64,000 nt of DNA from the human T2T-CHM13v2.0 reference genome, Homo sapiens, in assembly GCF_009914755.1 (NCBI RefSeq), contig NC_060939.1. One strand, written 5' to 3'. The notes below the pieces were generated by a model that made no database searches, had not been told where the DNA came from, and saw only the letters and a program-made list of their open reading frames with translations. How positions within the stretch are numbered: the stretch's first letter is position 1; every line of letters starts with the position of its first letter. The translations under genes were made by a program, and so were the position numbers. Shown here in pieces: positions 4,859 to 62,465 of this stretch.

Positions 4859-4910
4859 CTTTGGCTAGAGAATAAAGAATTTTGGCAAGAATAAAGAATT
4901 TTGGCAAGAA
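4859..4910. repeat. 19-bp tandem repeat (gaataaagaattttggcaa) x ~2.5
   Basis: Exact copies at 4870-4888 and 4889-4907. Confidence 0.9.
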
Positions 4911-60535: not shown

Positions 60536-60667
60536 CGTAGGTCTAATGGGGATGGTGAGAAGCAATTTGTACACAATGCCCATTAATCTCTCACTGTGCC
60601 ATGTATCAATCATAGAGAAGATCCCAGGCATGGGCCACCTGAACTACTATGTCGCTTACTTGACTTC

Positions 60668-60940
<273 letters not shown>

Positions 60941-61094
60941 TTAGAGAATCGATAGAATACAAATATACAAGATGACAAACATTTTACCACCCCAGAGTAC
61001 ATTAAAAAGTTAAAAAGACAATAAAATACTCACACTGCATTTCCAGTAGATATGCAAAACTGGAAATTTTAGACTCTTCAAAATATCAATTTTT

Positions 61095-61377
61095 GGCTGG
61101 GCGCAGTGGCTCACACCTCCCAGCACTCTGGGAGGCTCAGGTGGGCAGATCACCTGAGGTCAGGAGTTTAAGACCAGCCTGGCCAACATGCGGAAACCCC
61201 ATCTCTACAAAAAATACAAAAATTAGCCAGGAATGGTGGCATACACCTGTAATCCCAGCTACTGGGGAGGCTGAGGCTCAAGAATCACTTGAACCTGGGA
61301 GGCAGAGGTTGCAGTGAGCCAATATTGTGCCACCGCACTCCAGCCTGGGCAATAGAGTTAGACTGTCTCAAAAAAAA
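61095..61377 (+). mobile_element. AluS in the RAB27A last intron (antisense to the gene)
   Basis: Dimeric Alu; atcaatttt on both sides. Confidence 0.95.
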
Positions 61378-61458
61378 TCAATTTTCATTTTTTAAAGGAC
61401 CATATATATATTTTGGCAATACATACTGATTTACTGTAAAAAATTTATAAAAAGATAT

Positions 61459-61486
61459 AAGTAGGGGATTCTGGAAGACAGAGACA
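61459..61486 (-). repeat. Exact 28-bp copy of the RAB27A terminal intron/exon junction (60855-60882)
   Basis: aagtaggggattctggaagacagagaca occurs at both positions. Confidence 0.97.
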
Positions 61487-61519
61487 GAATTAAATCTTTT
61501 TTCGTTTAAGTTTTTGGAG

Positions 61520-61802
61520 GGTTTTTTGTTTTGAGACAGAGTCTCTATCACCCAGGCTGGAGTGCAGTGGCACGATCTCAGTTCCCAGGCGACTTCCCAG
61601 GCATCGATCCTCCTACCTCAGCTTTCCAAGTAGCTGGGACCACAGGCGCACACCACCACACCTGGCTAATTATTGTATTTTTTTGTAGAGACAGGGTTTT
61701 ACCATGTTGCCCAGGCTGGTTTCGAACTCCTGAGCTCAAGCTACCCACCCGCCTTGGCCTCCAAAGTGCTGGGACTACAGGTGTGAGCTGCTGCACCCAG
61801 CC
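61520..61802 (-). mobile_element. AluJ in the RAB27A last intron (sense to the gene)
   Basis: Diverged reverse Alu. Confidence 0.92.
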
Positions 61803-61849
61803 TAGTTTTAAGAATTTAAAACTTGATTATTGGTATGAAAGCCGTTTAA

Positions 61850-62465
61850 ATTCCTCTAAGTGAAAAGTAAAACTTGAAAACTTTTAGAAGAACATACAAC
61901 AGTCTTATCTTTTTGACATTGGAATAAGAAAGGATTTCTTAATATAGCTATAAAAGCTCAAACCACAGAGAATAAGTTTGATAATCTTGACAATGTTAAA
62001 GTTTAAAACTTTGGTGCCACAACATATATCATAAGCAAAGTTAAAAGATGAGCGACAGGCCGAAATACATGGCATTTCATATAACTTGCAAACGGGTTAG
62101 CATCCGAAAAAATAATTCCTCAAATGAATTAAAGTAATAAACAAGATAATACAAAACAGACTAAGGATATGCACGGGAAATTCTAAGAAATTACATTTGT
62201 GAAAAAATGTTCAACCTCACCCAAAATAAGGGAAATGCAAGTTAAAATAATGGTATATTAACTCACACCCATCAGATTGGCAAAAATATAGAAATCTCCC
62301 AATATTAAGTATTGCCAAGGAGAAGAAAAGAGGAACTTGCACTTACTGCTTATGTAAGTATAAACTGTTAATAACTACTTTGGAAAATAAGACGGTAATA
62401 TCTGATAAAATTGAAACATGCATGCACTATGACCCAGCAACAGCACTCCTGGGTATACATCTAAA
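61850..62465 (+). mobile_element. Ancient L1 (L1ME-like) ORF2 3' fragment
   Basis: gggaaatgcaagttaaaataa..cacacccatcagattggcaaaa..tatgacccagcaa. Confidence 0.7.

What the first reader, a model, noticed from the sequence alone, without database searches (positions are those of the whole stretch)
61431..61510. Exact duplicate (decoy) of the RAB27A terminal-exon splice acceptor 604 bp upstream in the intron
Seen: the 28-mer aagtaggggattctggaagacagagaca occurs at 60855-60882 (real junction) and at 61459-61486. On the transcript the copy reads tgtctctgtcttccAG|AATCCCCTACTT, i.e. the same 16 intronic nt plus 12 exonic nt, with a branch-like TTAAT just upstream. It is transcribed before the real site. 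An exact 28-nt non-repeat match at this distance is not expected by chance and suggests a local templated insertion. Inference: if used, the frame reads (G)IPYLYLFINFLQ-TAA (stop at 61431-61433). That product would lack the G5 ETSA box and the CGC prenylation motif, so it would be null or mislocalised. RAB27A loss causes Griscelli syndrome type 2, so this is a candidate cryptic site for splice-disrupting or deep-intronic alleles. Short split reads with <=12 nt overhang cannot distinguish the two acceptors.
Basis: partly seen in the sequence, partly recalled or inferred. Interest (0 to 1): 0.8.

Follow-up and report, generated by a model that had tools for sequence, protein, structure and literature searches.

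The report
Copied RAB27A splice acceptor in intron
A 28-base exact copy of the splice acceptor of the last RAB27A exon sits 604 bases upstream in the same intron; it looks like a small DNA-repair duplication that made a look-alike splice site, and whether cells ever use it is untested.

Summary
The 28-mer is exact at 60855-60882, the annotated acceptor, and at 61459-61486. It occurs nowhere else in the 3.1-Gb assembly, even with 3 mismatches. The flanks are unrelated. No comparable isolated repeat of 24 nt or more turned up in 200 kb of control sequence. The frame reading IPYLYLFINFLQ-stop is correct.

The best reading is a short, non-tandem, direct duplication. Filler DNA copied from the real junction was probably inserted at a repaired break in a very AT-rich spacer. 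That spacer also took two Alu insertions, and the copy now lies between those inverted Alus.

The core splice signals of the copy equal those of the real site. The two share -16 to +12, and the copy has a TTAAT branch motif with its A at -20. Its surroundings are not exon-like: the upstream side is A-rich and the downstream side is U-rich and GC-poor.

Use as a splice site could not be tested, because no RNA data and no other primate genomes were available. Five literature searches found no report of this site. It is a new example of known kinds (cryptic acceptor, templated insertion), and interest is modest.

The parts
60855..60882 (-). Source copy. This is the real acceptor of the RAB27A terminal exon: 16 intronic nt at 60867-60882 plus the first 12 exonic nt at 60855-60866.
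   Evidence: Exact 28-mer. The hub annotation puts the exon end at 60866. The frame continues [11 protein letters not shown]...CGC-stop.
61459..61486 (-). Duplicate copy (look-alike acceptor). The AG is at 61472-61471 and the first 'exonic' base would be 61470.
   Evidence: 28 of 28 identical. It is the only other place in the genome, even at up to 3 mismatches.
61489..61493 (-). Branch-point-like TTAAT (yUnAy), with its A at -20 from the copy's AG.
   Evidence: Motif scan. It is the only yUnAy in -60..-1 of the copy.
61431..61433 (-). TAA stop that ends the 12-codon reading IPYLYLFINFLQ if the copy is used.
   Evidence: Translation.
61449..61456 (.). Left arm (AAAAAGAT) of a perfect 8-nt inverted repeat that brackets the insertion point.
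   Evidence: (I15). In the RNA fold this arm pairs with 61494-61501.
61494..61501 (.). Right arm (ATCTTTTT) of the same inverted repeat.
61095..61377 (+). Alu lying between the two copies. It is antisense in the RAB27A transcript and has its own target-site duplication at 61080-61093 and 61372-61385.
   Evidence: sequence; D5 (13 of 14 identical, spacing 292). The hub lists 61076-61419 as masked repeat. The name Alu is my recognition of the sequence.
61511..61802 (-). Alu upstream of the copy, sense in the transcript. Its A-rich tail ends 24 nt from the copy. Its target-site duplication T(C/A)GTTT(T)AAG lies at 61502-61510 and 61803-61812.
   Evidence: read by eye. Inverted-repeat pairs I1, I2 and I4 with the other Alu. 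Predicted long duplex.
61243..61251 (-). Donor-like CAG|GTGTAT inside the antisense Alu, with the G of GT at 61246. Paired with the copy as acceptor it would close a 224-nt pseudoexon.
   Evidence: 7 of 9 matches to MAG|GTRAGT. No evidence of use.

Best explanation
This is a 28-bp direct, non-tandem duplication of the intron/exon junction of the RAB27A terminal exon. Most likely (inferred) a DNA break in a very AT-rich stretch of the last intron (15% G+C over 60 nt) was repaired with a short piece of filler DNA. The filler was copied from the real junction a few hundred bp away: 604 bp today, or 312 bp if the intervening Alu arrived later. The result is a pseudo-acceptor whose core, -16 to +12, is identical to the real one and which has its own branch-like TTAAT with the A at -20. 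I expect it to be used rarely or not at all in normal cells (inferred). Everything outside the 28 nt is unlike a real last-exon boundary: an A-rich Alu tail lies upstream instead of a pyrimidine-rich region, and a U-rich, GC-poor sequence lies downstream instead of coding sequence. If it is used, the protein ends after 12 foreign residues and lacks the C-terminal 65 residues, including the CGC prenylation end. It is a credible fallback site when the real acceptor is damaged.
For: Shown:
- The word is exact at two places and occurs nowhere else in the genome at up to 3 mismatches.
- There is no flank homology, ungapped or gapped.
- It is the only isolated, complex, exact local direct repeat of 24 nt or more in the 64-kb window. 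In the window, 37 exact repeats of 20 nt or more within 2 kb were listed, and the rest are Alu-Alu, simple or tandem.
- There is none of 24 nt or more in 200 kb from 20 other places. There, 252 repeats were listed and 56 were complex and non-tandem. Four of these had both flank identities at or below 0.40. By eye, 2 of the 4 are Alu, 1 is minisatellite-like and 1 is an isolated 20-mer.
- The 10 other annotated splice junctions in the window have no junction-spanning word longer than 11 nt that recurs.
- The 197 and 135 nt of non-Alu sequence between and around the copies are single copy in the genome. The interval is therefore not a transposon or retrocopy.
- The 23-mers at -20..+3 differ only at -20..-17. 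Pyrimidine fraction at -60..-21 is 0.68 for the real site and 0.35 for the copy. On the exon side, at +1..+30, G+C is 0.43 against 0.20 and U is 0.27 against 0.50.
- The frame and stop are as stated.

From print: germline templated insertions of 25 bp or more copied from nearby sequence are a known class in human genomes. About 100 per individual were reported for the inverted, within-100-bp type (PMC8421209, passages).
Against: - Neither junction has any microhomology. On the left...GATAT|AAGT is set against ...TTTCA|AAGT. On the right, ACA|GAAT is set against ACA|ACTG. Polymerase-theta or MMBIR copying usually leaves 1 to a few nt.
- The copy is direct and its template is 312-604 bp away. 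The class characterised in PMC8421209 is inverted and lies within 100 bp.
- Nothing here shows that the copy is unused. Its core signals are as good as those of the real site.
- Predicted RNA accessibility is higher for the copy than for the real site, with mean unpaired probability 0.63 against 0.38. Structure therefore gives no reason for neglect of the copy.
- No outgroup genome or second human assembly could be examined. Direction, age and fixation are all inferred.
Confidence: 0.6

Rival explanations
1. The two 28-mers are a long target-site duplication. The whole interval 60883-61458 (576 bp, about 284 bp before the Alu) was inserted next to the original acceptor. On this reading the copy at 61459-61486 keeps the ancestral upstream intron context, and the present branch region of the real site is new.
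For: Direct repeats flank a discrete interval. The interval ends in A-rich sequence...CTGTAAAAAATTTATAAAAAGATAT, just before the second copy. The same 140-nt AT-rich stretch took two Alu insertions, so it is a retrotransposition target.
Against: The non-Alu part of the interval has no second copy or parent anywhere in the genome at E up to 10. An event young enough to keep 28 of 28 identity should still match its source. The A-rich end is interrupted and is not a clean tail. The cleavage site ACTT/TG or CTTT/GA is a poor match to the L1 endonuclease preference TTTT/AA (the preference is recalled). 28 bp is long for such a duplication. The region upstream of the real site is pyrimidine-rich like a genuine acceptor, 0.68 at -60..-21.
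Confidence: 0.07
2. The copy is a working splice site. It engages the splicing machinery in normal cells and gives a measurable truncated or poison isoform, or delays removal of the last intron. It may be kept exact by selection as a regulator of RAB27A output.
For: The core is identical to the real site. It has a yUnAy branch motif with the A at -20 and no intervening AG, since the only other upstream AG in -60..-1 has its G at -26. It is transcribed first. It is predicted to be more accessible than the real site. Donor-like sites lie downstream at 61246 and 61153. There are zero substitutions in 28 nt.
Against: No transcript evidence was available. The hub's selected RefSeq model uses 60866 only. 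There is no report in five searches. The downstream sequence is U-rich and GC-poor, unlike an exon. Zero changes in 28 neutral, CpG-free bases is expected for any age up to tens of millions of years. With P(0)=exp(-28d), this is about 0.85 at d=0.006 and about 0.4 at d=0.03 (divergence values recalled). Exactness therefore needs no selection.
Confidence: 0.17
3. The 28 nt were captured rather than copied by a polymerase switching DNA templates. One version is a short reverse-transcribed piece of the unspliced RAB27A pre-mRNA. Another is a free excised oligonucleotide ligated into a blunt break.
For: Both junctions are blunt, with no microhomology. The piece spans an intron/exon junction, so an RNA source would have to be unspliced pre-mRNA, which is present at this very locus. 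The insertion site lies in a stretch hit twice by L1-driven Alu insertion.
Against: There is no A-tail and no endonuclease-type site at the junction. Nothing distinguishes an RNA template from a DNA template for a same-locus, same-strand sequence. This is pure inference.
Confidence: 0.08
4. Assembly error, or a variant private to the sequenced genome.
For: Only one assembly could be examined.
Against: The copy lies in unique, non-repetitive sequence between two well-formed Alus, each with an intact target-site duplication. A spurious, clean 28-bp insertion identical to a site 604 bp away is not a typical long-read assembly error (general knowledge).
Confidence: 0.05

Closest known systems
Cryptic (pseudo) 3' splice sites in introns, including those activated by mutation of the authentic site
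   Same: It has a YAG preceded by a pyrimidine tract and a branch-like motif, it lies deep in an intron, and it is not used in the selected annotated transcript (hub annotation).
   Different: Ordinary pseudo-sites resemble the consensus by chance. This one is an exact 28-nt copy of the authentic site of the same intron, exonic bases included. Core strength is therefore equal by construction and only context differs.
Germline templated insertions (MMBIR / polymerase-theta type), as catalogued in PMC8421209
   Same: It is a short insertion of 25 bp or more whose sequence is identical to a nearby template (PMC8421209 passages).
   Different: It is in direct rather than inverted orientation. The template is 312-604 bp away rather than within 100 bp. 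There are 0 nt of microhomology at both junctions.
Inverted intronic Alu pairs that alter splicing of a nearby exon (Lev-Maor et al. 2008, PMC2533698)
   Same: Two Alus in opposite orientation in one intron, just upstream of an exon, are predicted to pair over their full length: -434 kcal/mol and z = -22 against 20 shuffles. The paper's abstract reports that such a pair shifted a downstream exon from constitutive to alternative splicing.
   Different: Here the point of interest is the 133-nt spacer between the Alus, which holds the look-alike acceptor. No effect on splicing has been shown, and local accessibility does not favour the real site.
Alu exonisation from antisense intronic Alus
   Same: The antisense Alu downstream of the copy offers donor-like CAG|GTGTAT and CAG|GTGATC, and an acceptor-like CTCCCAG|.
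   Different: The acceptor in question lies outside the Alu and derives from the gene's own exon boundary.

Membership tests
Cryptic 3' splice site | YAG preceded by a pyrimidine tract | tested here: met
   ATTCTGTCTCTGTCTTCCAG|AAT has 15 of 18 pyrimidines at -20..-3. The real site has 14 of 18.
Cryptic 3' splice site | Branch-point motif 18-40 nt upstream with no AG in between | tested here: met
   TTAAT has its A at -20. In -60..-1 the only upstream AG other than the site's own has its G at -26. This is a motif match only.
Cryptic 3' splice site | Observed use in transcripts, normally or after loss of the authentic site | not testable with these tools
   No RNA data were available. Five literature searches gave no report.
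Templated insertion at a repaired break (TMEJ / MMBIR) | Inserted bases identical to a nearby template | tested here: met
   28 of 28 identical, with the template 604 bp away. That is 312 bp without the Alu plus one copy of its target-site duplication, whose spacing is 292.
Templated insertion at a repaired break (TMEJ / MMBIR) | Microhomology at the switch points | tested here: not met
   0 nt at both junctions (read directly). Later substitutions could have erased 1-2 nt.
Templated insertion at a repaired break (TMEJ / MMBIR) | Insertion absent from outgroups while its flanks are contiguous | not testable with these tools
   No primate or other vertebrate genomes are held. The assembly 'has no relatives here'.
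Retrotransposition-type insertion with a target-site duplication | Inserted interval derives from a repeat family or a parent gene | tested here: not met
   60883-61079 and 61386-61520 each match only themselves in the genome at E up to 10.
Retrotransposition-type insertion with a target-site duplication | A-tail abutting the 3' duplication | tested here: inconclusive
   AAAAAATTTATAAAAAGATAT precedes the second copy. It is A-rich but interrupted, in a region that is 15% G+C anyway.
Inverted Alu pair forming intramolecular dsRNA | Two Alus in opposite orientation, close together, able to pair | tested here: met
   Inverted arms are 77-88% complementary (I1, I2, I4). The fold gives -434 kcal/mol against a shuffle mean of -234, z = -22. 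This is prediction only. Editing and pairing in cells were not tested.

The most novel reading that the evidence does not exclude
The copy is a live decoy acceptor. In normal cells it captures part of the splicing of the last RAB27A intron. The product is either a 604-nt-extended terminal exon that escapes NMD and encodes a truncated, non-prenylatable Rab27a, or a 224-nt poison exon closed by the Alu donor at 61246. It takes over whenever the real acceptor is weakened by any variant inside c.468-16..c.479. That would make it a hidden determinant of RAB27A dosage and of unsolved Griscelli type 2 / HLH alleles, and a natural experiment showing that context alone decides between two identical 28-nt acceptor cores.
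Probability: 0.15. Interest if true: 0.55.

Novelty: new member of a known kind. Interest (0 to 1): 0.3.

Why it matters
- It is a natural controlled experiment in splice-site choice. Two acceptors in one intron share an identical core from -16 to +12, so any difference in use must come from context: the branch region, the far pyrimidine tract, exon-side enhancers or silencers, and the Alu duplex.
- For diagnosis, variants that weaken the real acceptor leave an intact wild-type copy upstream. One example, c.468-3C>T, is listed at 0.23% in a table of PMC12390453. The likely mis-splicing product, with 604 nt retained and a stop after 12 codons, can be predicted and looked for.
- Junction reads with 12 nt of overhang or less, and probes, primers or antisense oligos aimed at the acceptor, cannot tell the two sites apart.
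- It is a clean example of a direct, blunt-ended, 28-bp local copy. That form is less well catalogued than inverted templated insertions.

Tried and rejected
- Chance: rejected.
- Hidden longer duplication: rejected. No flank similarity, ungapped or gapped.
- Repeat family or retrocopy between the copies: rejected at this tool's sensitivity.
- Known RNA family at 60600-62100: none at gathering score.
- Hairpin at the insertion point as a cause: weak. A perfect 8-nt inverted repeat with a 9-nt loop brackets the point once the 28 nt are removed. Arms of 8 nt or more occur at 0.35% of 9,082 window positions and at 0.46% of 17,314 positions in 264 kb. Among GC-matched positions the figures are 3 of 57 and 39 of 1,036, or 3.8%, and those sampled positions are not independent. 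This is suggestive only.
- RNA structure hiding the copy: not supported. The copy sits in the spacer at the tip of the Alu-Alu duplex and inside a small local hairpin. Its mean unpaired probability, 0.63, is higher than that of the real site, 0.38.
- Splice-site scoring with MaxEntScan or SpliceAI: not available here. I did not build a substitute from memory.
- Dating with primates: no such genomes are held.
- Literature: five searches found nothing on a cryptic acceptor, pseudoexon or deep-intronic allele in this intron. Subscription-only papers and ClinVar-type databases were not searched.

Full report
**Observation.**
The 28-mer AAGTAGGGGATTCTGGAAGACAGAGACA is present exactly at 60855-60882 and at 61459-61486. 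The first copy spans the annotated boundary of the RAB27A terminal exon, whose end is 60866. It carries 12 exonic and 16 intronic bases.

- None of 100 dinucleotide-preserving shuffles of the window gave any match at up to 3 mismatches.
- In the whole 3.1-Gb assembly the word has only these two places, at 0 mismatches and at up to 3 mismatches.
- Similarity ends abruptly. The 40-nt flanks are 23% and 20% identical, which is the random level.
- A gapped blastn-short comparison of 300-nt flanks gave no in-register hit. Its best hit is only the physical overlap of the two flank segments, and the next is Alu against Alu.

**How unusual it is.**
- The window holds 37 exact direct repeats of 20 nt or more within 2 kb. 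All the others are Alu-Alu matches, simple repeats or a 19-bp-offset tandem.
- In 200 kb taken from 20 other places in the same genome, 252 such repeats were found and 56 were complex and non-tandem.
- Only 4 of those 56 had both flank identities at or below 0.40. By eye, two are Alu sequence, one is minisatellite-like and one is an isolated 20-mer, at L007 3773/4312. None of 24 nt or more was comparable.
- For the 10 other annotated splice junctions in the window, the longest junction-spanning word that recurs anywhere in the window is 11 nt. For this junction it is 28 nt.

The control sample is small.

**Anatomy on the transcript strand**.
- Real site: ...TCACTCTCCTTTCCCTCCACATGTTGTTACCTCAGT-TGTCTCTGTCTTCCAG|AATCCCCTACTT-TGAAACTAGTGC...
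- Copy: ...CCCTCCAAAAACTTAAACGAAAAAAGATTTAATTC-TGTCTCTGTCTTCCAG|AATCCCCTACTT-ATATCTTTTTATAAATTTTTTACAGTAA...
- The 23-mers at -20..+3 differ only at -20..-17.
- The copy has one yUnAy motif, TTAAT, with its A at -20. The real site has TTAC with its A at -24.
- Pyrimidine content at -60..-21 is 0.68 for the real site and 0.35 for the copy.
- On the exon side, at +1..+30, G+C is 0.43 against 0.20 and U is 0.27 against 0.50.
- The reading frame gives (G)IPYLYLFINFLQ and then TAA at 61431-61433. The real exon reads [11 protein letters not shown]...GACGC-stop.

Calling ETSA the G5 box and CGC the prenylation motif rests on general knowledge of Rab proteins, not on a call.

**Surroundings.**
- Between the copies lies an Alu on the + strand (61095-61377), antisense in the transcript. 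Its own target-site duplication is at 61080-61093 and 61372-61385, 13 of 14 identical, with spacing 292 (D5). Without that Alu the two copies would be 312 bp apart.
- Upstream of the copy lies a second Alu on the - strand (61511-61802). Its tail ends 24 nt from the copy. Its target-site duplication T(C/A)GTTT(T)AAG is at 61502-61510 and 61803-61812 (read by eye).
- The copy therefore sits in a 133-nt spacer between two inverted Alus. G+C over 60 nt at the insertion point is 15%. That spacer has received three independent insertions.
- The non-Alu sequence between and around the copies is single copy in the genome.
- No Rfam family matches 60600-62100.

**Origin.**
The simplest account is a 28-bp piece of filler DNA, copied from the real junction and inserted at a repaired break.

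Germline templated insertions of this size are a described class. PMC8421209 reports about 100 events of 25 bp or more per individual, of the inverted, within-100-bp type (passages read).

Two points do not fit the usual mechanisms. The copy is in direct orientation and its template is several hundred bp away. Neither junction shows microhomology.

With the 28 nt removed, the insertion point lies in the 9-nt loop of a perfect 8-nt inverted repeat, AAAAAGAT/ATCTTTTT. That is rare over all positions, 0.35-0.46%. It occurs at 3.8% of GC-matched positions, 39 of 1,036, so it is only suggestive.

The main rival is a 28-bp target-site duplication around a 576-bp insertion. Three things count against it. 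No parent or family exists for the interval. The interval has an interrupted A-rich end. The upstream region of the real site looks like a genuine acceptor.

Age is only loosely bounded. The word has no CpG, and zero changes in 28 neutral bases is unremarkable for divergences up to a few percent. With P(0)=exp(-28d), P(0) is about 0.4 at d=0.03 and about 0.06 at d=0.10. The divergence values are recalled, not computed here.

**Function.**
No RNA data could be consulted, so use of the copy is open.

Arguments for neglect are contextual. Upstream there is an A-rich Alu tail. Downstream there is U-rich, GC-poor sequence with U5 and U6 runs. The copy also sits at the tip of a predicted Alu-Alu duplex, at -434 kcal/mol against -234 for shuffles, z = -22.

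Inverted Alu pairs in an intron can change splicing of a nearby exon (PMC2533698, abstract).

Against a structural explanation, predicted local accessibility is higher for the copy (0.63) than for the real site (0.38).

If the copy simply replaced the real acceptor, the stop would lie in the last exon and should escape NMD. A cassette form is also possible, using donor-like CAG|GTGTAT at 61246 (224 nt) or CAG|GTGATC at 61153 (317 nt) in the antisense Alu. That form would be an NMD target.

**Literature.**
Five searches of the held library found no report of this site or of any deep-intronic RAB27A allele in this intron:
- RAB27A with 'deep intronic'
- RAB27A with Griscelli, cryptic and acceptor
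- RAB27A with 'c.468-'
- RAB27A with pseudoexon
- RAB27A with Griscelli, 'aberrant splicing' and cDNA

PMC13392799 only makes a general remark on non-coding RAB27A variants (passages). A table in PMC12390453 lists RAB27A c.468-3C>T, labelled 3' splice site, at 0.23% (passage). That position lies inside the real copy of the 28-mer. All other papers were seen as search listings only.

**Verdict.**
It is a genuine 28-bp local duplication that created a core-identical look-alike of the terminal acceptor. A templated or filler insertion is the best origin model, with confidence about 0.6 for the combined statement. Usage is unknown. The kinds involved, cryptic acceptors and templated insertions, are well known, so this is a new member of known kinds. 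It has modest general interest and some practical value for RAB27A variant interpretation and for read mapping.

Noticed in passing
window 61095-61377 (+) and 61511-61802 (-): An inverted Alu pair about 230 nt upstream of the RAB27A terminal exon is predicted to form a near full-length duplex in the pre-mRNA: -434 kcal/mol and z = -22. It is a likely A-to-I editing substrate and could influence splicing of the last intron.
   Followed up: partly
window 61153, 61246, 61294 (- strand): The antisense Alu carries donor-like CAG|GTGATC and CAG|GTGTAT and an acceptor-like CTGCCTCCCAG|GTTCAA. It therefore has exonisation potential of its own, independent of the 28-mer copy.
   Followed up: no
window 61372-61520: Three independent insertions, two Alus and the 28-mer, fall within about 140 nt of very AT-rich sequence. 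G+C is 15% around the insertion point. This may be a local hotspot for nicks or breaks.
   Followed up: partly
window 60869 (c.468-3): A published table lists RAB27A c.468-3C>T at 0.23% frequency (PMC12390453). The position lies inside the real copy of the duplicated word, and the upstream copy would keep the reference base.
   Followed up: no
window 4869-4910: A 23-nt exact direct repeat, AGAATAAAGAATTTTGGCAAGAA, is offset by 19 bp, which makes it a small tandem duplication.
   Followed up: no
L007 3773-3792 and 4312-4331: In a control stretch, an isolated exact 20-nt direct repeat, GGGGAGGTATGCACGTGTTG, lies 539 bp apart with unrelated flanks. It may be another short dispersed local copy of the same kind.
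   Followed up: no
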